Source: a virus
Virus record (IMG/VR): IMGVR_UViG_3300010244_000001
Direction: 5' to 3' (one strand)
Length of the DNA stretch: 64,000 nucleotides
In this document: positions 48,456 to 60,157 of the stretch, piece by piece
How the letters are laid out: each line of letters starts with the position of its first letter
How positions within the stretch are numbered: the first letter of the stretch is position 1
Position numbers and translations under genes: made by a program
Notes under the pieces: model-generated
Told to the model about the DNA's origin: nothing
What the model saw: the letters and a program-made list of their open reading frames with translations, nothing else
Database searches by the model: none

Positions 48456-50168
48456 ATGGCAGTATCTTACGGATACGACAGAACTCGTCCTAGAACAAGG
48501 GTAACACTTGATTCTAGTAACCTAGGTTCTGCAAATGTAGCAAGTGAAAAGCCTTTAATACTGCTTGGTTCTGCTACAGGTGGACAACCACATGCACCAC
48601 AAGAAGTTACAGACTTTTCTCAAGCAAGTAACATTTTCCGTGGTGGAGAACTACTTGATGCTATTGAAATGGCATGGAATCCCTCTCCGAATGTGGAAAA
48701 CAAAGCAGGACGTATTTTTGCAGTAAGAACAGATGAAGCGAAACAAGCAAATCTAACCGAAGGAGCTATTACTGTTGTTTCTAATCTGTATGGTTACGAT
48801 GCTAACAGTATTCAGGTTTCTTACGGGGATAACGAGTTAACTGGTTCTAAACGATTTAGTGTATTCTTTACGCAAGACCGTTATGAACGAGTGTATGATA
48901 ACATTGGTAATATCTTCTCTGTTACATATACTGGAGATCAACCTCAGGCAACTGTAACAATTAAAGAGGATACCAATACAAATCAAGCGACACAGCTTGT
49001 ATTGTCTGTAGGTGAAGGAACAGACAGCATGCAACCAGTTCGTACTTATGAGTTGGGTGAGGGTGTTTATAAGGACACGAATATTCTTGTAAACGACATT
49101 AACAACCTTCCAGACTTTGAAGCTAGTATGAACTTCCGTGGAGGTAGCAAGAACGTACCTACAAACACGTTAGACCCTATGGAAGCTACAGATATTACAG
49201 GTGGCGAAGTAACGGTTACAGCAGTTGCAGGTGACCTTGTACGTCAAACACGTAATGACCGTTATATTTCTATCGAAATCGACCCTACGAAAGAAATGCC
49301 AGACACAATCCCGTTGTCTAATCTTTCAGGTGCAGAAACTTCACCTTCCCCTGCTTCTTGGGCTTCGATTTTCGATACCGTATCTGATTTAGGTGCTTAT
49401 TACATTGTACCTTTAACAGATGATGAAGCTATCCATGGGGAACTTGTACAATTCCTACGTGATGAATCTCGAAATGGGAACCACTTGAGAGGAGTTGTAG
49501 GCGGTGGATTTGAATCATCTGTCAACGAGTTGGTGTCTCGTCAGACGAATTTAAGCAGTTCTAGAGTATCTCTGGTTGGGGATTCTGTTACTCGAAGAAT
49601 GTCTGATGGACGAGTATATAATGCTCCTGCATACATGTATGCAGCTGCTCTTGCAGGTATAGCGAGTGGACTACCAATTGGAGAACCAATTACTTATAAA
49701 CACACATCTATTGAAGCAATAGATAGGAAATTCTCAGGTTCTCAGTTAGACCAGCTAGACGATTCTGGTGTAATTATGACTGAGTTTGTACGTACACGTA
49801 ATAACTCGTACTACCGTATTGTAAGTGACCCTACAACTTACAACGCTAGTTCTGAACCTGTACAGAATACAATGAGTTTGGGTGAAGTTTCCGACTTCCT
49901 TACAACAGATATTCGTACAATGCTGGATGAAAACTTTATTGGTTCTCGTGTCCAAAGTACATCAGCATCTATCCTTAAAAACGCTGTAGAATCTCTCCTA
50001 GACCAACAGAAAAATGTTGGTGGGTTGATTGTAGACTACAGTCCAGAGGATGTACAAGTTGTAATTAATGGAGATACAGCACGAATTAATATTACTGTAC
50101 AACCTGCACAAGGATTGAGTTATATCAACGTTCATATCAACTATGAAGATAATGAACTTGTTGGATAA
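48456..50168 (+). CDS. tail sheath protein (size and position), 570 aa
   Basis: large gene directly before the tube gene. Confidence 0.65.
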   Translation: MAVSYGYDRTRPRTRVTLDSSNLGSANVASEKPLILLGSATGGQPHAPQEVTDFSQASNIFRGGELLDAIEMAWNPSPNVENKAGRIFAVRTDEAKQANLTEGAITVVSNLYGYDANSIQVSYGDNELTGSKRFSVFFTQDRYERVYDNIGNIFSVTYTGDQPQATVTIKEDTNTNQATQLVLSVGEGTDSMQPVRTYELGEGVYKDTNILVNDINNLPDFEASMNFRGGSKNVPTNTLDPMEATDITGGEVTVTAVAGDLVRQTRNDRYISIEIDPTKEMPDTIPLSNLSGAETSPSPASWASIFDTVSDLGAYYIVPLTDDEAIHGELVQFLRDESRNGNHLRGVVGGGFESSVNELVSRQTNLSSSRVSLVGDSVTRRMSDGRVYNAPAYMYAAALAGIASGLPIGEPITYKHTSIEAIDRKFSGSQLDQLDDSGVIMTEFVRTRNNSYYRIVSDPTTYNASSEPVQNTMSLGEVSDFLTTDIRTMLDENFIGSRVQSTSASILKNAVESLLDQQKNVGGLIVDYSPEDVQVVINGDTARINITVQPAQGLSYINVHINYEDNELVG

Positions 50169-50228: not shown

Positions 50229-51559
50229 GTGGCTAGTGTAACGAATCAAACAGTACAGTCCGCTAATACGGTGTACTTTATGATTAAAAACGTACCAATT
50301 GCCAGAGCACAGTCCATCTCCTCAGAACGTAGTTTCGGTACTACTGGGGTATACCAAATCGGTTCTATCATGCCTCAAGAACATGTGTACTTACGTTATG
50401 AGGGTATAGTTTCGGTTGAGAGATTCCGGATGAAACGTGAGAACTTGGCTTCATTAGGGTGAAAGTCCTAGACAACTCGCCCCCGTAGGTTGAAAGACCT
50501 ACAGGACAAGAGGGTAAACTGCTGGAAGCCCCTAAAGCTCTGTAAACTACAACGTAACTGGAAACGGTAAACGTGAATGTGACCGAAAGGTAGAAAGAAT
50601 TACAGAGATGGCATAAGCTAAAACATAATGCTACGTGCTACAGAATGGGAAATCAGCATCCACTTTCCTTTAAAATGGAAAAGGTTCAACGACTAAAATC
50701 CTCTACCATAAAGGTAATTATATAGTCTAAACCCGAACAAATAAGTGGAAACACTGGGTACAAATTGTCGCAGCTCTAGGAGAAGAAGTTTTACAGATGG
50801 ATATTATGGATATTGTTCTTTTTGACAACTACACACAAGAGGTCGTAATAGCATATCGTGGGTTAGTGTAAGTATACTGGGCTCACGTAAAACAGATGAA
50901 ATTGACGGGAACATCCTTACAGCCTTTTCTACCAACTGTACGTAGTAATACAGTACAGGGCTAAACTAACTATTTAGGTAGGGTAAAAAAGAAAAGGATT
51001 GGATAATCCGCAGGGAAGTCTCCTATAAGGAGAAACCTTCAACGACTGTAATATCTGCATTTACGAATGAAGGTACAGTCTAATCCCTTTAAGTATCAGG
51101 AAACTGAGGGTATGAAATATAATGGCAGTATAGACACATACAGTGAATCTGTGAATGTGGGAGAAATTTCCTCAGAGTTAATAGCTGGCTCTGATTAAAC
51201 AGTGTTAATTGACGGGAACTTCCTAAAGCTCTACACACCAACTATACGTAGAAATACAGTATAGGGCTGAACTAACTATTCAGGTAAGGTAAAAGAGGTA
51301 GAGATGGAACAATGGAAAATCCGCATCCAAGTCTCTCAAGGAGAGAAAGGTTCAACGACTATCCCAACGGTGATATAAAGTCACAACAGGAGTAGGGCTT
51401 ACATAAGTAAGTAGGTGAGAACCCTTTAAATCGAAATACACTGCATAGATGATATAGTCTAATCCGACTGAGTAATCAGTATGAAAATATCTCGAAAGAG
51501 ACGGTATAAAATTCGCAGCCCGATTTTATTTTCTCACATCCGCCAATGTCAGAGCGTAA
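50229..51559 (+). CDS. tail tube-like gene in four exons: join(50229..50455,50757..50864,51111..51179,51484..51559), 159 aa (hand model, boundaries within a few nt)
   Basis: SD AGGAGTGA, GTG 50229; each proposed exon is open in frame, total 480 nt; every 5' junction follows TT at codon position 2; every intron ends in G. Confidence 0.55.
50456..50756 (+). ncRNA. group I intron 1 (about 301 nt, no ORF)
   Basis: core GGTTCAACGACTAAAA(50683-50698) pairing with ATATAGTCT(50721-50729), P7-like; P2-like hairpin GTAGGT/ACCTAC. Confidence 0.6.
50865..51110 (+). ncRNA. group I intron 2 (about 246 nt, no ORF)
   Basis: CCTTCAACGACTGTA...TACAGTCTAA, with covarying P7 GACTGTA/TACAGTC. Confidence 0.55.
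51180..51483 (+). ncRNA. group I intron 3 (about 304 nt, no ORF), paralogue of intron 2
   Basis: GGTTCAACGACTATCC...GATATAGTCTAA; 5' half aligns with intron 2 (AATTGACGGGAAC..TCCT.A.AGC..CCAACT.TACGTAG.AATACAGTA.AGGGCT.AACTAACTATT.AGGTA.GGTAAAA). Confidence 0.55.
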
Positions 51560-51572
51560 TCGACATAGTAAA

Positions 51573-51603
51573 AGGAGTCCTTTAAAAGGCTCCTTTTTTT
51601 TTG
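51573..51603 (+). terminator. rho-independent terminator after the tube gene
   Basis: AGGAGTCC/AGGCTCCT plus T9. Confidence 0.75.
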
Positions 51604-51632
51604 TTGACTTATTGTCATACCTATGTTATAGT
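51604..51632 (+). promoter_or_regulatory. sigma-A-type promoter
   Basis: TTGACT(51604-51609)-N17-TGtTATAGT(51624-51632). Confidence 0.7.
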
Positions 51633-51663
51633 TAAGTTACAGAATAATATTGGAGGTGTATTA

Positions 51664-52779
51664 ATGACTAAACGGTTAACGTATGAGGAAGTAAAGGATT
51701 TTATAGAATCGGAAGGTTTTACACTATTAAGTGACGAATATACTAGAGGTAAAGAAAAGTTAACGATTAGATGTAAAAAGGGTCACGAGGAGCCTATCAT
51801 TTTTAATAATTTTAAAACAAGAAGACGTTGCCCTAAATGTGCCATTGAAGAACGGAATGAAAAGAAGAGGATAAAGCCTGATAAAGTTAAAGAATTGGTA
51901 GAGTCTGAAGGGCATGAACTTTTAGAAATTACTGAAGGTTATAAGGGTGAACATAAGAGATTGTTAGTTAGTTGTCCGAACAAAGACCACGAACCCTACC
52001 CAGTATCGTACCAAAATTTTAATAAAGGTAAAAGATGTCCCGAGTGTAAAGCAGATAAGAATAGAATACCTTTCAAAGAGGTTAAGGATACTATAGAGAG
52101 TGAAGGGTTTAAGTTATTGAGCAAAAAGTATAAATCAAGGAAACATACAATAAATGTTGAATGCCCTCAAGGTCATATATACCCAACAACTTATGATTTG
52201 TTTTTATCTGGAAAACGGTGTGGTAAATGTAACATGAGTAGAGGGGAAAATTTACTTTACTTTATTTTAAAGAATATTTTACCCGAAAACAATTTTTATT
52301 ACCAGTACCCTGTAACTATCGACAATAATAATTATCGGTACGATTTCTGTGTTGACTCTGATTTTAGACTTTTTATTGAGTTCGATGGTACACAGCACTA
52401 CAAGTCTGTTTCAGAATTTGGTGGCAAAGAAGGTTTTTATCAGTGTGTGGCTAGTGACAAAGTAAAGAACGATTTTGTAGAGAACAATATTGATTCTCTA
52501 CTTTTAAGGGTTCCTTATTTTTACAGCATAGAAAATGTGTATTACTCAGTTGTCCAATATCTGAAAGAAAATGACGTGCTAGTTACAGAAATTGAAGACT
52601 TATCAAAGTTGAACAATGCGTTATATGTAAATACTAGACAAGAAGATATAGCAAGTTACTACCTTACGAACTCGATTTCTGATACATCTAAAAAGTTTAA
52701 TGTACATAAAGCAACTGTGTATAAATATTTTAAGAAGGTATATGGTACAAGTAAATCTAAATATAAGAAAGAAATTTAA
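51664..52779 (+). CDS. free-standing nuclease-like protein: 3 zinc-ribbon repeats, PD-(D/E)XK (Vsr/DUF559-like) core and C-terminal HTH, 371 aa
   Basis: SD GGAGGTG, ATG 51664; three roughly 55-aa repeats (EEVKDFIESEGFTLLS...CxxGH...CPKC); YRYDFCV...FIEFDGTQHY. Confidence 0.55.
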   Translation: MTKRLTYEEVKDFIESEGFTLLSDEYTRGKEKLTIRCKKGHEEPIIFNNFKTRRRCPKCAIEERNEKKRIKPDKVKELVESEGHELLEITEGYKGEHKRLLVSCPNKDHEPYPVSYQNFNKGKRCPECKADKNRIPFKEVKDTIESEGFKLLSKKYKSRKHTINVECPQGHIYPTTYDLFLSGKRCGKCNMSRGENLLYFILKNILPENNFYYQYPVTIDNNNYRYDFCVDSDFRLFIEFDGTQHYKSVSEFGGKEGFYQCVASDKVKNDFVENNIDSLLLRVPYFYSIENVYYSVVQYLKENDVLVTEIEDLSKLNNALYVNTRQEDIASYYLTNSISDTSKKFNVHKATVYKYFKKVYGTSKSKYKKEI

Positions 52780-52851: not shown

Positions 52852-53118
52852 ATGGAAATACCTATTGGAGTTAAGTTAATAGTAAATCGTATTTTCGGTG
52901 AGGATAATGACGTAAAAATAGAAGATTGGGATTCAGATAGAATAATGGTTTCAGATGGAGATACGGAGTATAATATTCGGACTTGGAATATTACGGATAG
53001 GTATGTAGATTGGACTCTATTCAGAATGGTGTATAACGATAATGGTAGAGGTCATGGTGAGGTAATGAGTGAGGGTGTTTATCCTATCGAGGAAGACTTA
53101 CCTAATGAATATCAGTAA
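52852..53118 (+). CDS. hypothetical protein, 88 aa
   Basis: SD AAGGAGGAA, ATG 52852. Confidence 0.7.
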   Translation: MEIPIGVKLIVNRIFGEDNDVKIEDWDSDRIMVSDGDTEYNIRTWNITDRYVDWTLFRMVYNDNGRGHGEVMSEGVYPIEEDLPNEYQ

Positions 53119-53160: not shown

Positions 53161-53646
53161 ATGTCAGAACACACTCATATGAATGGTATCGAAGTAATTG
53201 AGGGAATAAGGAATTCTTATCAATATGATACCAATTCTAGTGTTCCGATTGGTGGTCGAGTGTACTACGAACCTTTAGACGAGGTAGATGATGTAGAAAT
53301 AGGTTGGGACCAGAGCATTACTCTAGTTCACTATGATGTTATTGAAGGACCTCCCGAGGCTGTTAAAGTGCAGACATTTATTGGTGATGAAAACAGAGCC
53401 ACAGATGTAAAAGATGCACCTTTAAAAGGGGCTTATGTTGAGCAAGAGTTCATATTCGGTGCTCTTACCGATAACAGAGCTAGTGTAACTGCGTCAGGGT
53501 TTACTGACAATAGGGGGTTTGTAGAACTAGCGGTGGAGATACCTGAGCATGAACCTTCAGAGTATTATAATATACTCACAACTATAACTTATCAAGGACA
53601 AGAGAAAGGTAACATTAGTACAGTCTATCAAATGGAAATGAGCTAA
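53161..53646 (+). CDS. hypothetical protein, 161 aa; no SD of its own, overlapped by a 16-codon leader ORF 53132..53182
   Basis: SD AAGGAG serves ATG 53132 (MKTWNEYKNKCQNTLI*); the main ORF is in the -1 frame. Confidence 0.6.
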   Translation: MSEHTHMNGIEVIEGIRNSYQYDTNSSVPIGGRVYYEPLDEVDDVEIGWDQSITLVHYDVIEGPPEAVKVQTFIGDENRATDVKDAPLKGAYVEQEFIFGALTDNRASVTASGFTDNRGFVELAVEIPEHEPSEYYNILTTITYQGQEKGNISTVYQMEMS

Positions 53647-53785: not shown

Positions 53786-54388
53786 ATGGATATGAAGAAA
53801 GTTTTAGTATCGTTAATGGTACTAACAGGAGTTATTATAGGGGGAGAAACAGTAACGTCTGTATCTGCATCTGCAAACTCCTTTAATGAAAACAGTATAG
53901 TAGACTACTTGTATTCTCAAGGAGAAGACTTTTCTTTTGAGTACAGAGAGGAACTAGCAGAAAAGTACGGAATCACCAACTACGAAGGTACAGCTAAACA
54001 GAACCTTACTTTGCTAGATGAATTACAAGAAAACAATGGTTCCGAAACAGTTGTGACAGGTGTAAGTACAGTTAACCAAGAACAAGAAAGTAATACAATG
54101 ACTGTGGAAGCAACAGCATATACCGCAGGTGTAGAGTCCACAGGTAAAAATCCTAGCGATGACGGTTACGGGATAACAGCTAGCGGTACGGTTGTAGAGG
54201 AAGGCAGAACATTAGCGTGTGGGCAATATTTTGATATAGGTACACACATATACATACCTATAATGGGTAGTACGTACATTTGTGAAGACAGAGGTGGAGC
54301 GGTTACAGGTATAGACATTTATATGGATAGTGTAAAAGATGCTCGCGAGTTTGGAAGAAAGAATGTTGAGGTAACTATTTTAGATTAG
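53786..54388 (+). CDS. secreted 3D-domain (MltA/YuiC-like) cell-wall protein, 200 aa
   Basis: signal-like MKKVLVSLMVLTGVIIGGETVTSVSASA; VEATAYTAG...ICEDRGGAVTGIDIYMDS. Confidence 0.7.
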   Translation: MDMKKVLVSLMVLTGVIIGGETVTSVSASANSFNENSIVDYLYSQGEDFSFEYREELAEKYGITNYEGTAKQNLTLLDELQENNGSETVVTGVSTVNQEQESNTMTVEATAYTAGVESTGKNPSDDGYGITASGTVVEEGRTLACGQYFDIGTHIYIPIMGSTYICEDRGGAVTGIDIYMDSVKDAREFGRKNVEVTILD

Positions 54389-55189: not shown

Positions 55190-55221
55190 AACCACTACCA
55201 ACGAGGTAGTGGTTTTTCTTT
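55190..55221 (+). terminator. rho-independent terminator
   Basis: AACCACTACC/GGTAGTGGTT plus TTTTCTTT. Confidence 0.8.
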
Positions 55222-55291
55222 GTGTGTTATAATAGAATTAACAATGCTATATTACTTAGTAGACGAGATTTTAAAACAGGAGGAATGAAAC

Positions 55292-55726
55292 GTGGCAGAG
55301 CAAGAAGAATTTGAAAAAGAGATGCAAGGTTTCAATAAGTCGGAAGAAACCAAGCAAGAAGAACAAGAACAAGAAGAAAAAATTGAACAGAAGAAAACCA
55401 TTGATAGAATTGTCCGTGGAGTTAACGATACATTTGAAAAAGATTACAACTTTGACGATTTAGGATTGAAATTTACAGTTAAAATAAAAGCTCCCAATGC
55501 TTTAGAGATTGGTCGAATACAGGCTAGAATGTCTGCCTATTTAGGGGGTATGAATAATTATGCTAGTGAATATATGAGTGTTGTATATTCAACTTTAGCT
55601 ACCCTTCGTACAACAGGTGTGGACGTTCCTAAAGAGTTAGAAAAGGATGAAGATATTTATAACTTAGATATTATTTATTTGATTGGACGTGATTTCCAGC
55701 ATTGGCTGGATAACTTTCAACTTTAA
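55292..55726 (+). CDS. tail assembly chaperone, short form, 144 aa
   Basis: SD AGGAGGAATGA, GTG 55292; position before the tape measure gene. Confidence 0.7.
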   Translation: MAEQEEFEKEMQGFNKSEETKQEEQEQEEKIEQKKTIDRIVRGVNDTFEKDYNFDDLGLKFTVKIKAPNALEIGRIQARMSAYLGGMNNYASEYMSVVYSTLATLRTTGVDVPKELEKDEDIYNLDIIYLIGRDFQHWLDNFQL

Positions 55727-56369
55727 GGTCAAACAACAGGGAGGACTAAAAAAGTTAGCCCGAAATAACTATATGAGGAATATTTGGGCTATAATGACAA
55801 AATTTAAAGTTCTCCCTACAAATGAAGATTTCAGAAATTTAACAAATGACCAAATCGATTTAATTTTACACTCTATGGAAGAAGATTATAGACAAGCTGA
55901 CCGTGCCCGTAGAGGTCTTGGTGCTGAAGATGAAGGATACGATGAGTCCTTTGAAGATGAGGTATGGAACAGAGATGTTGGTGACTGGGAAGTGCTTAAA
56001 GAAGGTCACGACCCTAATGAAATCGCTAAACAAGTTGAACAACTTACAAGAGAAGAAGACCAGAAAAATCTGTATTCTAAGTTTGAGAACTTAGAAGAGT
56101 ACAATGCCTTCCGTGAAGCAGGAGGTAAAACAGACAGAGAGAATGAAGTTGAACAGTATATAAATAGGCAAATCCAAGCAGCTGAAGAAAAGGCTAAGAT
56201 GATGAGAGAAGACGGTAAAGGTAAAAGACTGGTTGATGATAAAGATAACCCAGACATTTCTGATAATTCAGATAACAGCACTTCTGAATTAGACAAGCAA
56301 GCTATAGAGAGGTCTATTGAAATGTTTAATGCACAAGATGATGACGATGATGAGTTCACGAAGCTTTAA
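55292..56369 (+). CDS. tail assembly chaperone, long form by +1 frameshift: join(55292..55723,55725..56369)
   Basis: ORF 55683..56369 has no convincing SD or ATG and overlaps in the +1 frame; junction CTT TAA G at 55721-55727. Confidence 0.5.
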
Positions 56370-56375
56370 AGGAGG

Positions 56376-56408
56376 GCAGAGGTAAAACAATCCTCTGCTC
56401 TTTATTTT
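56376..56408 (+). terminator. terminator-like hairpin between chaperone and tape measure genes
   Basis: GCAGAGG/CCTCTGC plus TCTTTATTTT. Confidence 0.5.
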
Positions 56409-56431: not shown

Positions 56432-59400
56432 TTGGCTAATAAAGAGAAGTATATGTTTGAGGTTGAAGCCCAGACAGGTAAAGCTGAACAAAGTCTAAAA
56501 AGTATTCAACAGAGAATGGATGAAATTGAAAAGATACGTAACCGTGGTTCGGATAACTATGATACAACTTCTCAAAAAGAAATGTATAAAGCAATGCGTA
56601 ATATGTCTGAGTTAACTCAACAGTACAAAGAAGCTAACAGAGAATTGGAATCAATTAAGTCAAATATGTCTAACATGTTTGATTCTATTCAAGTTCCTAA
56701 AAATGCTTCTAGGGAACAGTTAAATCAGATGAATAGCTTAAGGACTGCTTCCTATAAAAATGCACGAGCAGCAGTACAGCAACAACGAGAACTGCAACAA
56801 GCCTATGCCAAATCCCTTAGTCAGCTAAGGGAACTGTCTTCCTTCCAACAGACCCCCTCTAAGGCATTCAGGAGTCCTTTAGGTTCTAATGATATCCGTA
56901 ACGTTAGTCAAGACCCTGTTAGAGCTAGAGGGCAAACTGAGGCACTAGCTAACAGGGAGAGTGGAGCAGATAGCGTAACAGATAGACTTAAGGAACAAAT
57001 GAAAGAGGTAAGAGAGCTAGACAAACGTACCTCTAACAGAGCAAGACAAGCAACTGCTTCTAAGTATATGTCCTACCAACAGTCTAGTGACTTCGGTGCA
57101 GATGTTATGAGAAGTAGAAATGACTTCACAGATGATAGAGAAAAGAATTTACAGTCAATGACGAGAAACAATATGGAGCGGTCACGCTTATCTAGAGAAG
57201 TTAGTCAAGTACAAAGTAACCCCGATAACTACTCACAAGAAGAACGAGACCGTGCCTTTCAAATGCAAGAAACGATTAGGGAAATAGACAGAGAGCAAGA
57301 TATTCGAGAGAAGCTTAATCGAACTCTTAATCAGACAATGGAGAATGTAGAGCAAGCTAACTCAGATATCCTTGGAGCTGGAGTAGAAGCAAGACCGAAA
57401 CGTGGTACCATAAGTAGTATGGCTGTAGAACGTGCCCCTTCTATCGGTATGGGTATATCTGGTGCAGTAGGTCTAACCCTTGGAGGAATGTACGCTAGAG
57501 GTGATTCTGCTGAGAGTAATATGAGAGATGATATCATAGCTATAGGTCAGAGAACAGAACAAGACCGATGGAGACAGAATGTAAGAGACGATGCTATAAA
57601 TTCAGGTCTCGAAAACAGGTTAGGGTTTACTGGTCAAGAAATGCTTACTTTCCAACAAAATTATCTAGGAAATAGGGGATATCAAAGCATGGAAGACCTA
57701 GACACAGCTATGACTTCTCAAGCAGAGTTTTCTCGTGTAACAGGTTCCAGTGCTGAAACCACCAGCCAATTCTGGAGTGGTATGTTTGACAGCGCAGCAC
57801 TAGTTGGTAACGATGTAAAAGATATCCAAAATGCTTTTGTAGGTGGTATTAAAGAGAGTGGTATGCAAGGTCGTGAGGAAGCTCAATTAAAAGCCACTGA
57901 AAGCTTAGTTAGTACAATTTCACAAGGACGTACTGTAGGTCGTGAAGGTGTCTTGAATCTAATGGGGCTACAATCAGTACTAAATCAATCTGGAGTTAAA
58001 CCTTTACGAGGTGAAACAGGTAGTCAATTTCTTCAAGATATTAATACTGGTATTAGACAGGGTATTGATGACCCATCTACTAGGTTGATGTTTGGTCAGG
58101 GTTCAATATACCAAGGTCTAGGAGGTTCTTGGGAACTAGCACAACAAATGGAAAAAGGTATACAAGACCCAAGGAATATTAGAACTATTGGTAGTATTGC
58201 TGAAAGCTTTTCTAGCACTGAAGAGGGGCAAAACTATGCATCCCTCCAATTCCTAAGAGGTAATTTAGGTGTAGATGCTTCTACAGAACAAGTAGAAGGA
58301 CTAATGGACTTATACAGAAGTGGGCAACTCTCAGATGAGAATATACAAGATGTAATGCAATCCACTCAACAAACGGGAGAGGAAGCTTCTCAGGAAAGTG
58401 CAGAAAGATATTCAGAATCAAACGAAGCTACAAGAAATCAGAGTGAAGCAGTATCAGAAAAACAAGCAATAAATATAAATGACTTTGGGGATTTAGTAAG
58501 GTCTGCTAATTCAGCTATGAGTCAAGTACCTACGCTTGCTTACGCAGTAATAGCTGCTTTTGGTTCCCTTGCAGTTTCCATCGCAGGTATTGCAAGTATG
58601 CTTGGTACATCAGGTGGAGTTGGTAAAGTTGGTCAATGGTTGTCTCGTACTGGAGGTAAGTATAACGACCCCGATGGAGGAAAAGGACCTTTCGTAGATA
58701 AAAACGGAAACCCTATCTCAAGCCAAAAACAACAAACTGGTGGAGGAGGATTCTTCTCCTTCGGTGGATTTGGTGGTGGAGATGACTCTACAACTAGAGA
58801 TGGTAAAGGACCGGCAGGAAGAGTTGGTGGTTTATTTAACAAAGCAAAACAAGGACCTAGTAAGGCAAAAAACTGGGCAAAAAATATCTTCTCTGGTGGA
58901 GGAGGTAACAGCTCAGGCATCCTACCCCAAGCTCCCGGTGGAGGAAACTTTTTAGGAGGTCTCGGTAAAGTAGCAGGAAAGGCATTCTTACCTCTAAGCT
59001 TACTATCTACTGCTGGCAGTGTAATTAACTCCTCTTCCGCATCTTCTACAGGAAATGCTCTTGGAAGTCTTGGGGGAGGACTCGGTGGCGGTGGAATAGG
59101 AGCAGCCATCGGTACGATGATTATGCCCGGTATAGGTACTGCTATTGGTGGAGGTATTGGAAGTATAGTAGGCTCATTCGGTGGCTCTAAGATAGGTGAG
59201 GCTATAGGAGGGTTGTTTGGTGGAGGAGACAGCGAATCTTCTACTCAGGAAGAAACGACTTCTCAAACAAATACCGACCAAGAAAGTAGTAGCCAAAGTC
59301 AACTAGACCGAGAGAACACGACTCAAGCAGCCAATACCGAGAGACTTAGAACAGACAACATTGCTAATATGAGGTCTAATTTAAACCAACAACAAGGGTT

Positions 59401-60157
59401 GGTTAATCAGATTAGGGACTTGTTACAACAGTCTGCTATACAGAACGGTGTTGTTGGAAATGTAGGAAATTCAATGGGTACAACCAATGCAGGTAATCCA
59501 GCCCAACAAGTTGCAGGAAGTGGAAATGCAGAAAAGATATGGAATTTCTTTGCAAACAACGGTTTTAATCCACAAGCAACTGCCGGTATTATGGGTAACT
59601 TACAGCAGGAATCAGGTTTAGACCCAACAGCAGTAAACCCGACTAGTGGAGCCTCTGGTGTGGGGCAATGGTTAGATGGTCGTTTAGACAACCTACATTC
59701 TTTTGCTTCAGATAGAGGAACAAGCCCTAAAAATTTACAAACTCAGCTAGAATTTATGTTACATGAGATGCAAGGTGGAGACGCAGGAACCGACTTTTCT
59801 CCATATGGAGGTCTAGATGCCTTTAAAAATGCTGATGATGTTAATAAAGCAACAAATGTGTTTGAAGATGTGTTTGAACGTTCTGGGGGCTCTGCAATGG
59901 GTAATCGAAGAGATTATGCTAATGAGTTCCTTAATAGGTACCAATCCTCTGCTAATACAGGAAACACAGCTACACAGGTTTCCACTGCGTCTGCTAATCC
60001 TGAGATAACATCAACGATTAACGTACAAGTAAGTGCAGATGAAAAGGTGTCAGATAAAGTAAATGACAGTAAAGATATGGAACAAACAGCTAGAAATATT
60101 CACGACCGAGTTTATGGTTCGATGAACTTCCATTCTATAGATACAGTGAGGATTTAA
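56432..60157 (+). CDS. tail tape measure protein with C-terminal lysozyme-like domain, 1241 aa
   Basis: length, coiled-coil N-terminal half, Gly-rich and TM-like centre, IWNFFANNGFNPQATAGIMGNLQQESGLDP near the C-terminus; TTG start with SD GGAGAGTGG. Confidence 0.8.
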   Translation: MANKEKYMFEVEAQTGKAEQSLKSIQQRMDEIEKIRNRGSDNYDTTSQKEMYKAMRNMSELTQQYKEANRELESIKSNMSNMFDSIQVPKNASREQLNQMNSLRTASYKNARAAVQQQRELQQAYAKSLSQLRELSSFQQTPSKAFRSPLGSNDIRNVSQDPVRARGQTEALANRESGADSVTDRLKEQMKEVRELDKRTSNRARQATASKYMSYQQSSDFGADVMRSRNDFTDDREKNLQSMTRNNMERSRLSREVSQVQSNPDNYSQEERDRAFQMQETIREIDREQDIREKLNRTLNQTMENVEQANSDILGAGVEARPKRGTISSMAVERAPSIGMGISGAVGLTLGGMYARGDSAESNMRDDIIAIGQRTEQDRWRQNVRDDAINSGLENRLGFTGQEMLTFQQNYLGNRGYQSMEDLDTAMTSQAEFSRVTGSSAETTSQFWSGMFDSAALVGNDVKDIQNAFVGGIKESGMQGREEAQLKATESLVSTISQGRTVGREGVLNLMGLQSVLNQSGVKPLRGETGSQFLQDINTGIRQGIDDPSTRLMFGQGSIYQGLGGSWELAQQMEKGIQDPRNIRTIGSIAESFSSTEEGQNYASLQFLRGNLGVDASTEQVEGLMDLYRSGQLSDENIQDVMQSTQQTGEEASQESAERYSESNEATRNQSEAVSEKQAININDFGDLVRSANSAMSQVPTLAYAVIAAFGSLAVSIAGIASMLGTSGGVGKVGQWLSRTGGKYNDPDGGKGPFVDKNGNPISSQKQQTGGGGFFSFGGFGGGDDSTTRDGKGPAGRVGGLFNKAKQGPSKAKNWAKNIFSGGGGNSSGILPQAPGGGNFLGGLGKVAGKAFLPLSLLSTAGSVINSSSASSTGNALGSLGGGLGGGGIGAAIGTMIMPGIGTAIGGGIGSIVGSFGGSKIGEAIGGLFGGGDSESSTQEETTSQTNTDQESSSQSQLDRENTTQAANTERLRTDNIANMRSNLNQQQGLVNQIRDLLQQSAIQNGVVGNVGNSMGTTNAGNPAQQVAGSGNAEKIWNFFANNGFNPQATAGIMGNLQQESGLDPTAVNPTSGASGVGQWLDGRLDNLHSFASDRGTSPKNLQTQLEFMLHEMQGGDAGTDFSPYGGLDAFKNADDVNKATNVFEDVFERSGGSAMGNRRDYANEFLNRYQSSANTGNTATQVSTASANPEITSTINVQVSADEKVSDKVNDSKDMEQTARNIHDRVYGSMNFHSIDTVRI

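What the first reader, a model, noticed from the sequence alone, without database searches (positions are those of the whole stretch)
55721..55727. prfB-like 'shifty stop' CUU UAA G predicted to fuse the two tail-chaperone ORFs by +1 frameshifting
Two overlapping ORFs precede the tape measure gene, as is usual for tail assembly chaperones. Here the second ORF (open from 55683) lies in the +1 frame rather than -1 and has no credible SD or ATG. The first ORF ends CAA CTT TAA G. Slippage of Leu-tRNA from CUU to UUU places AAG GTC AAA... in frame. The logic is the same as the E. coli prfB site CUU UGA C. The result would be a fusion of roughly 358 aa.
Basis: partly seen in the sequence, partly recalled or inferred. 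Interest (0 to 1): 0.65.

Follow-up and report, generated by a model that had tools for sequence, protein, structure and literature searches.

The report
Tail chaperone +1 frameshift site
This SPO1-like phage almost certainly makes a long tail-assembly chaperone by a +1 ribosomal frameshift, as its relatives are already annotated to do, but the slip site conserved across the family is UUU_C, six bases upstream of the proposed CUU_UAA_G.

Summary
The sequence is as described. ORF1 (55292-55726, 144 aa) ends CAA CTT TAA G. A 214-codon extension continues in the +1 frame to 56369, just upstream of the tape-measure/tail-lysin gene. The window comes from a Herelleviridae (SPO1-like) myovirus.

In 65 of 65 distinct related junctions ORF2 is in the +1 frame. 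No junction has a start codon with a credible Shine-Dalgarno upstream of its invariant Gly-Gly motif. GenBank and RefSeq already annotate the joined chaperone in several relatives. So the fusion is well supported and is not new.

The proposed mechanism is only partly supported. The codon before the stop varies across the family; CTT occurs only in the window's nearest clade. The invariant feature is TTT_C, three codons before the stop. It is TTT in 65/65, while other conserved Phe positions use TTT 50-68% of the time. The next codon is usually a rare CGN. That is the known +1 motif UUU_CGN (influenza PA-X, amalgaviruses; UUU_Ynn in bacteria). Annotators already place the join there.

The window keeps TTT_C (55715-55718), but CGN has become the common codon CAA. 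CUU_UAA_G therefore remains a possible second or backup site. Either route gives 358 aa, differing at two residues (NF or QL).

The parts
55278..55283 (+). Shine-Dalgarno AGGAGG for ORF1, 8 nt upstream of the GTG start
   Evidence: read directly
55292..55726 (+). ORF1: short tail assembly chaperone (144 aa), the product of standard decoding
   Evidence: phrog_1038 E 8e-55 and phrog_4988 positions 3-139
55683..55726 (+). Stretch where the 0 and +1 frames are both open (44 nt); any frameshift must occur here
55715..55718 (+). TTT_C: the family-invariant candidate +1 slip site (tRNA-Phe UUU to UUC). The A-site codon here is CAA (55718-55720), where most relatives have CGN
   Evidence: 65/65 junctions; annotated joins in relatives are placed here; full re-pairing possible
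55721..55727 (+). Conserved only in the nearest clade
   Evidence: not conserved family-wide
55719..56369 (+). +1-frame extension (the T-like part of the fusion), read from AAC 55719 if the slip is at TTT_C or from AAG 55725 if at the stop; ends at TAA 56367-56369
   Evidence: phrog_4988 positions 141-348, E 7e-81; invariant Gly-Gly lies upstream of any usable start codon
56376..56408 (+). Terminator-like hairpin (GCAGAGG / CCTCTGC, 9-nt loop) plus T-tract, between the chaperone genes and the tape-measure gene
   Evidence: read. The scan did not list it because the loop exceeds the tool's 8-nt limit. Relatives have annotated or mapped terminators at this place
56432..60157 (+). Tape measure / tail-associated lysin (1241 aa), the presumed client of the chaperones
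   Evidence: phrog_1047 E 1e-293

Best explanation
ORF1 and the +1 ORF are the G/GT-type tail assembly chaperone pair of a Herelleviridae myovirus. Most ribosomes terminate at TAA 55724-55726 and make the 144-aa chaperone. A minority shift +1 within the last four codons and make a 358-aa fusion that continues to 56369. The most likely main slip is peptidyl-tRNA-Phe (anticodon GAA) moving from UUU (55715-55717, a G:U wobble pair) to UUC (55716-55718, Watson-Crick), after which AAC UUU AAG GUC... is read, giving ...HWLDNF-NFKVKQQGG.... This is the family's conserved UUU_C(GN) site. In this phage the usual rare CGN A-site codon has mutated to the common CAA, so the downstream CUU_UAA_G may add to or back up the shift. 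Shown: frame arrangement, homology, lack of an independent start, nucleotide-level invariance of TTT_C. Inferred: that shifting occurs, its exact site and its efficiency.
For: (1) ORF2 is +1 and open through the ORF1 stop in 65/65 distinct junctions, drawn from 17 named genera plus metagenomes. (2) In 40 of the 59 junctions where the Gly-Gly motif was located, the ORF2 frame has no ATG/GTG/TTG upstream of it, and 0 of 65 have a start there with an SD match of 5 nt or more. (3) In most junctions the overlap is only 17 nt (xx ACC TTT CGN NNN stop), and TTT to TTC is then the only re-pairing slip available. (4) Phylogeny-matched control: junction Phe is TTT 65/65, against 39:18 and 25:25 TTT:TTC at other conserved Phe positions. 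Junction Arg is CGN 54/54 (45 of them the rare CGA/CGC/CGG), against 43-56% AGA/AGG at other invariant Arg positions. TTT followed by C is avoided elsewhere in these genes (25 of 450). (5) TTTC is the only invariant run of bases in the junction alignment, and there is no conserved RNA structure. (6) Curated records join the CDS exactly after this Phe (..NTF|ADKV..). (7) UUU_Ynn is known to be prone to +1 shifts in bacteria, and UCC_UUU_CGU / UUU_CGN is an established +1 PRF motif (PMC5009743; PMC5052127). (8) Four other lineages have UUU_CAA with no shifty stop (GGA_UGA, CUC_UGA, UUC_UGA, UAC_UAA), so UUU_CAA appears to be sufficient. (9) In a near relative the last codon is ATT: the 0-frame residue changes from Leu to Ile while the +1 codon stays TTT.
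Against: No protein-level evidence exists for this phage, and I found none for any Herelleviridae chaperone in the held literature. The window lacks the CGN A-site codon; CAA is common here (29 per 1000 codons), so pausing at UUU_CAA should be weak. The window and four of its five nearest relatives carry CUU_UAA, which re-pairs fully in +1 with a stop in the A site. The third-position T of that codon fits either model. The GenBank joins are annotators' judgements, not measurements.
Confidence: 0.58

Rival explanations
1. One reading: in this phage the +1 shift occurs mainly at the shifty stop. Peptidyl-tRNA-Leu slips from CUU (55721-55723) to UUU while UAA waits in the A site, giving ...DNFQL-KVKQQGG....
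For: CUU_U re-pairs fully in +1 and is the classic prfB P-site codon. A stop in the A site supplies the pause that the common CAA after UUU does not. CTT_TAA is present in four of the five nearest relatives. The window alone has lost CGN, so function may have moved to this site.
Against: The site is not conserved across the family: most lineages have TAC, AGA, AAG, AGG and similar codons before the stop, which cannot re-pair. One near relative has ATT_TAA. Every relative with CTT_stop also keeps UUU_CGN, so CTT is not needed to explain their fusion. Here the stop is UAA followed by G, not the weak UGA_C whose 3' C is conserved and important in prfB (PMC5009743). From my own knowledge, unverified here, UAA is read by both release factors. 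No SD-like stimulator lies 3 nt upstream.
Confidence: 0.27
2. There is no frameshift. ORF2 is made separately, either by initiation at TTG 55683, GTG 55689 or ATG 55773, or by termination-reinitiation after the ORF1 stop.
For: Many records annotate ORF2 as a separate gene starting at the internal ATG. Gene callers do the same in metagenomes.
Against: No SD precedes any of these starts. The ATG is not conserved: the motif reads YAR, YSR, LSR or YGR in the Listeria, Enterococcus and Staphylococcus phages. The invariant Gly-Gly and the flanking conserved residues lie upstream of it. 40 of 59 junctions have no start codon at all upstream of that motif. The constant +1 offset and the invariant TTTC would be left unexplained.
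Confidence: 0.06
3. The shift is -2 rather than +1 at the same TTTC, so Phe is read twice, as one GenBank record (Phrodo, ..NTFFADKV..) annotates.
For: A -2 shift reaches the same frame as +1. One curated record uses it.
Against: After a -2 move the P-site tRNA-Phe would sit on AAC here, or ACC/TCC in relatives, and cannot pair (sequence). All other curated joins use +1. UUU_C is a documented +1 site.
Confidence: 0.03
4. Transcriptional slippage or a sequencing or assembly error produces the frame change.
For: None specific.
Against: No homopolymer longer than 3 nt lies in the overlap. The same +1 arrangement occurs in 65 independent sequences.
Confidence: 0.01

Closest known systems
Annotated +1 frameshifted tail assembly chaperones of Bacillus Herelleviridae (Troll, Taffo16, AvesoBmore, Anthos, Chotacabras, Hobo, Anthony, Bubs) and Lactobacillus phage LfeInf; PHROG 4988
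   Same: Homologous proteins (53% identity over 95% of the fusion). Same position upstream of the tape measure, same +1 offset, same TTT_C three codons before the stop. The join is annotated directly after that Phe.
   Different: The window has CAA instead of CGN after TTT, and CTT rather than AGA or AAG before the stop. It has no close relative: megablast finds nothing and the best ORF2 protein identity is 65%.
Influenza A PA-X site UCC_UUU_CGU and the amalgavirus UUU_CGN +1 PRF motif
   Same: The same proposed event: P-site tRNA-Phe slips from UUU to UUC with a CGN codon in the A site and no RNA structure needed. Many relatives carry the identical nonamer TCC_TTT_CGT (A5W, Romulus) or [A/T]CC_TTT_CGN.
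   Different: Those are eukaryotic RNA viruses on 80S ribosomes. The window itself has AAC_UUU_CAA. I found no paper extending this motif to phages.
Phage lambda G/GT (and P2 E/E+E') tail chaperone frameshift
   Same: Two products with a shared N-terminus, encoded just upstream of the tape measure. The long form is made by a low-frequency programmed shift near the end of the short ORF (PMC5009743).
   Different: Lambda shifts -1 on a heptanucleotide; this one shifts +1. No detectable sequence or Pfam relationship.
E. coli prfB CUU_UGA_C
   Same: CUU in the P site next to a stop codon, with +1 re-pairing onto UUU.
   Different: UAA_G instead of UGA_C. No SD-like stimulator 3 nt upstream. No autoregulatory logic. 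The site is not conserved among homologues.
Listeria phages PSA, A118 and A500 tail gene +1 shift at CCC_UGA
   Same: A phage structural gene extended by a +1 shift at the last sense codon before a stop, in a low-GC Firmicute host.
   Different: A different gene (major tail protein), a different slippery codon (CCC), and siphoviruses.

Membership tests
G/GT-type frameshifted tail assembly chaperone pair | Located immediately upstream of the tape-measure gene in the tail module | tested here: met
   Sheath 48456-50168, chaperone pair 55292-56369, tape measure/lysin 56432-60157
G/GT-type frameshifted tail assembly chaperone pair | The second ORF overlaps the end of the first in another frame and has no translation start of its own | tested here: met
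   +1 offset in 65/65. No SD-linked start. The conserved Gly-Gly lies upstream of any start codon in 40 of 59 junctions
G/GT-type frameshifted tail assembly chaperone pair | A conserved slippery sequence within the overlap | tested here: met
   TTT_C in 65/65, with a matched codon control
G/GT-type frameshifted tail assembly chaperone pair | Both the short and the fused protein are made, at a set ratio, and both are needed for tail assembly | not testable with these tools
   No proteomic or genetic data found for this family. No natural in-frame fusion among the database hits, which fits a need for both forms
G/GT-type frameshifted tail assembly chaperone pair | Sequence or fold relationship to characterised chaperones | tested here: inconclusive
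   PHROG 1038/4988 are labelled 'tail assembly chaperone', but there is no Pfam hit and no solved homologue. Structure prediction was not run
prfB-type shifty stop | CUU in the P site directly followed by a stop codon, with ORF2 in +1 | tested here: met
   CTT TAA at 55721-55726
prfB-type shifty stop | Weak termination context (UGA followed by C) | tested here: not met
   UAA followed by G. The importance of the 3' C is stated in PMC5009743
prfB-type shifty stop | SD-like stimulator about 3 nt upstream of the shift codon | tested here: not met
   The upstream sequence TGGCTGGATAACTTTCAA has no SD core of 4 nt or more
prfB-type shifty stop | The shift site is conserved among homologues | tested here: not met
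   The codon before the stop is variable. CTT or TTT occurs only in the window's wider clade
UUU_CGN / UUU_Ynn +1 PRF site | 0-frame UUU followed by a pyrimidine, so that tRNA-Phe can re-pair on UUC or UUU | tested here: met
   TTT_C at 55715-55718; 65/65 relatives
UUU_CGN / UUU_Ynn +1 PRF site | CGN (Arg) codon in the A site | tested here: not met
   The window has CAA. 54 of 65 relatives have CGN, and 45 of those are CGA/CGC/CGG
UUU_CGN / UUU_Ynn +1 PRF site | Downstream ORF in the +1 frame, expressed only as a fusion | tested here: met

The most novel reading that the evidence does not exclude
The window captures a shift site in transition. The ancestral UUU_CGN site has been weakened by a single G-to-A change (CGA to CAA), and the adjacent CUU_UAA_G, already present in the clade, now carries much of the +1 frameshifting. 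That would be a natural tandem of two +1 sites 6 nt apart, giving two fusion isoforms (NF and QL). More broadly, the whole Herelleviridae family would be using on bacterial ribosomes the same UCC_UUU_CGN cassette as influenza PA-X. I found no paper saying this.
Probability: 0.25. Interest if true: 0.45.

Novelty: new member of a known kind. Interest (0 to 1): 0.3.

Why it matters
For annotation, the two ORFs should be recorded as one short chaperone plus one joined 358-aa CDS. The many records that call the ORF2 homologue an "RNA polymerase beta subunit" (phrog_1316) or start it at an internal ATG are probably wrong. For the study of recoding, the family offers a large natural series of UUU_C +1 sites on Gram-positive ribosomes: CGA, CGC, CGT, CGG, CAA or CTG in the A site, with or without an adjacent shifty stop. 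That series could be used to test what, beyond tRNA scarcity, makes UUU_CGN shift-prone, a question the amalgavirus literature leaves open. The finding itself, a frameshifted tail chaperone, is expected and already annotated in relatives.

Tried and rejected
- Megablast of the region against phage genomes found nothing. Relatives appear only with blastn or tblastn.
- Pfam gave no significant hit for either ORF. Sequence search of the PDB gave nothing meaningful.
- RNA structure as a stimulator: the window alone folds weakly (z = -2.06), and the 14-sequence alignment has zero consensus pairs. Rejected.
- An SD-like stimulator upstream of either site: none that is conserved.
- Phage tRNAs that might alter A-site decoding: none in the window.
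- Literature on experimental proof of this frameshift in SPO1-like, Kayvirus or A511-type phages: none found. The A511 tail paper and Schwartz & Curran 1997 are not held.
- Natural in-frame fusions: none among the database hits. The only full-length proteins are annotated joins.
- The idea that loss of CGN is compensated by a shifty stop: four other UUU_CAA lineages have no shifty stop, and CTT_stop lineages keep CGN. No such correlation was seen.

Full report
**Observation.** Bases 55721-55727 read CTTTAAG. ORF1 runs 55292-55726 (GTG start with AGGAGG 8 nt upstream, 144 aa) and ends ...GAT AAC TTT CAA CTT TAA. A second frame, +1 relative to ORF1, is open from 55683 to 56369. Joining them gives 358 aa. 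The 1241-aa tape measure/tail lysin starts at 56432.

**What it is.** ORF1 matches the PHROG tail-assembly-chaperone family 1038 (E 8e-55). ORF1 and the +1 extension together tile one 350-position fused profile, phrog_4988, at positions 3-139 and 141-348. tblastn finds the extension in 714 phage records, nearly all Herelleviridae of Staphylococcus, Bacillus, Enterococcus, Listeria, Lactobacillus and Brochothrix. The nearest are only about 60% identical, and megablast finds nothing, so this phage is new at roughly genus level. The flanking genes are the expected tail module: sheath, tube, chaperones, tape measure/lysin, baseplate.

**The fusion is already annotated in relatives.** Bacillus phages Hobo, Anthony and Bubs and Lactobacillus phage LfeInf carry a two-piece joined 'tail assembly chaperone' CDS next to the short one. 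A 21-member protein cluster holds 347-aa fused proteins from Troll, Taffo16, AvesoBmore, Anthos/Beyonphe and Chotacabras. Other records annotate two separate genes and often start ORF2 at an internal ATG or call it 'RNA polymerase'.

**Comparative evidence for a frameshift.** I collected 96 loci giving 65 distinct junctions, from 17 named genera plus IMG/VR contigs.
- ORF2 is +1 in 65/65, and in most the overlap is only 17 nt.
- The ORF2 product has an invariant Gly-Gly near its N-terminus.
- In 40 of the 59 junctions where that motif was located, the frame has no ATG/GTG/TTG upstream of it. None of the 65 has a start there with an SD match of 5 nt or more.
- The internal Met used by many annotators is not conserved.
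- No gene-caller-derived protein spans both halves, so natural in-frame fusions seem to be absent.

Independent initiation is therefore very unlikely, and a programmed +1 shift is the best reading.

**Where the shift occurs.**
- The codon before the stop is not conserved: TAC in most Staphylococcus, Listeria and Enterococcus phages; AGA, AAG or AGG in Bastille-like phages; also GGA, GTA, AGC, TAT, TTC. Most of these cannot re-pair in +1.
- Every junction has TTT_C inside the overlap. In 60 of 65 it sits exactly three codons before the stop, as NNC TTT CNN NNN stop.
- The matched control in the same 65 sequences:

| Position | Codon counts |
|---|---|
| Junction Phe | TTT 65/65 |
| Other conserved Phe positions | TTT:TTC 39:18 and 25:25 |
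| Junction Arg | CGN 54/54, of which 45 are the rare CGA/CGC/CGG |
| Other invariant Arg positions | 43-56% AGA/AGG |
| TTT followed by C elsewhere in these genes | 25 of 450 |

- Counting each genus-level lineage once (18 lineages), TTT every time has a rough chance of 0.56^18, about 3e-5 (my inference).
- TTTC is the only invariant run of bases in the junction alignment, and there is no conserved RNA structure.
- The curated fused proteins read ..NTF|ADKV.. where the 0 frame reads ..NTFRR*, so the join is placed directly after this Phe. One record (Phrodo) writes it as a -2 shift..NTFFADKV...

[quoted passage not shown] Nibert et al. describe UUU_CGN as the amalgavirus +1 motif, with tRNA-Phe slipping from UUU to UUC (PMC5052127). 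Many relatives carry exactly TCC_TTT_CGT or [A/T]CC_TTT_CGN. I found UUU_CGN discussed only for eukaryotic viruses. I found no experimental paper on this frameshift in Herelleviridae.

**The window itself.**
- It reads AAC_TTT_CAA_CTT_TAA_G. Only two codons in its 14-codon overlap can fully re-pair in +1: TTT (55715) and CTT (55721).
- It keeps TTT_C, but its A-site codon is CAA, a common codon here at 29 per 1000.
- Its five nearest relatives read NNC TTT CGN CTT TAA (four) or ...CGG ATT TAA (one). So CTT_TAA is locally semi-conserved, always beside an intact UUU_CGN, and the window differs by one G-to-A change.
- Four other lineages have UUU_CAA with no shifty stop, which suggests that UUU_CAA is sufficient.
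- In the ATT variant the 0-frame residue changes while the +1 codon stays TTT. That favours translation of the +1 frame at that codon, and so a shift upstream of it.
- Against the prfB analogy: the stop is UAA-G rather than UGA-C, and there is no upstream SD-like element.
- Even so, CUU_UAA is a real slippery configuration, and it supplies the pause that CAA lacks.

My estimates: about 0.9 that a +1 fusion is made; about 0.58 that UUU_C is the main site here; about 0.27 that the shifty stop is the main site. The two products differ only in two residues (NF or QL).

**Verdict.** The feature is an expected member of an already annotated class. The modest new content is the family-wide UUU_C(GN) signature and this phage's variant with two adjacent candidate sites.

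Noticed in passing
window 50229-51559: The tail-tube gene is split into four exons by three related group I introns. They lie at 50451-50740, 50853-51110 and 51169-51482. Each matches Rfam RF00028 over the full model, below the gathering score (32.5-43.8 bits, E 1e-6 to 8e-10), and all were missed by the whole-window scan. Exon translations match tube proteins of Listeria, Enterococcus and Mammaliicoccus phages. The intron core is 70-77% identical to unannotated DNA after the sheath gene in Staphylococcus Herelleviridae. From memory, phage Twort orf142 also has three group I introns.
   Followed up: partly
window 51601-52779: A free-standing HNH homing-endonuclease ORF (392 aa, phrog_559 E 1e-55) lies immediately downstream of the intron-rich tube gene. 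It is not inside any of the three introns.
   Followed up: no
relatives, e.g. L011 1270-1857, L012 1270-1845, L014 1156-1785: Homologues of the +1 extension are widely annotated as 'RNA polymerase (beta subunit)' (phrog_1316) and started at a non-conserved internal ATG. This is probably an annotation error that has propagated.
   Followed up: partly
junctions of most relatives (e.g. L001 1486-1502): In most junctions a +1-frame stop, made by TGG CTA/TTA R.., sits so that the overlap is exactly 17 nt. This confines any +1 product to the last few codons. The window has a longer overlap of 44 nt.
   Followed up: no
P0056 versus P0055/P0057/P0060/P0062: GenBank is inconsistent about the direction of the same frameshift. 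Phrodo is annotated as -2 (..NTFFADKV.., 348 aa), while its near-identical relatives are annotated as +1 (..NTFADKV.., 347 aa).
   Followed up: no
window 55190-55214 and 56376-56408: Terminator-like hairpins flank the chaperone pair, and TGTTATAAT (an extended -10-like sequence) lies at about 55226-55234. So the pair may be its own transcription unit, as reported for a P100-like Listeria phage.
   Followed up: no
window 53786-54388: A secreted-looking peptidase with a 3D-domain-like C-terminus (phrog_2307, L-alanyl-D-glutamate peptidase) and two ORFs with no family match (52852-53118, 53161-53646) sit between the tube and chaperone genes, where relatives have fewer genes.
   Followed up: no
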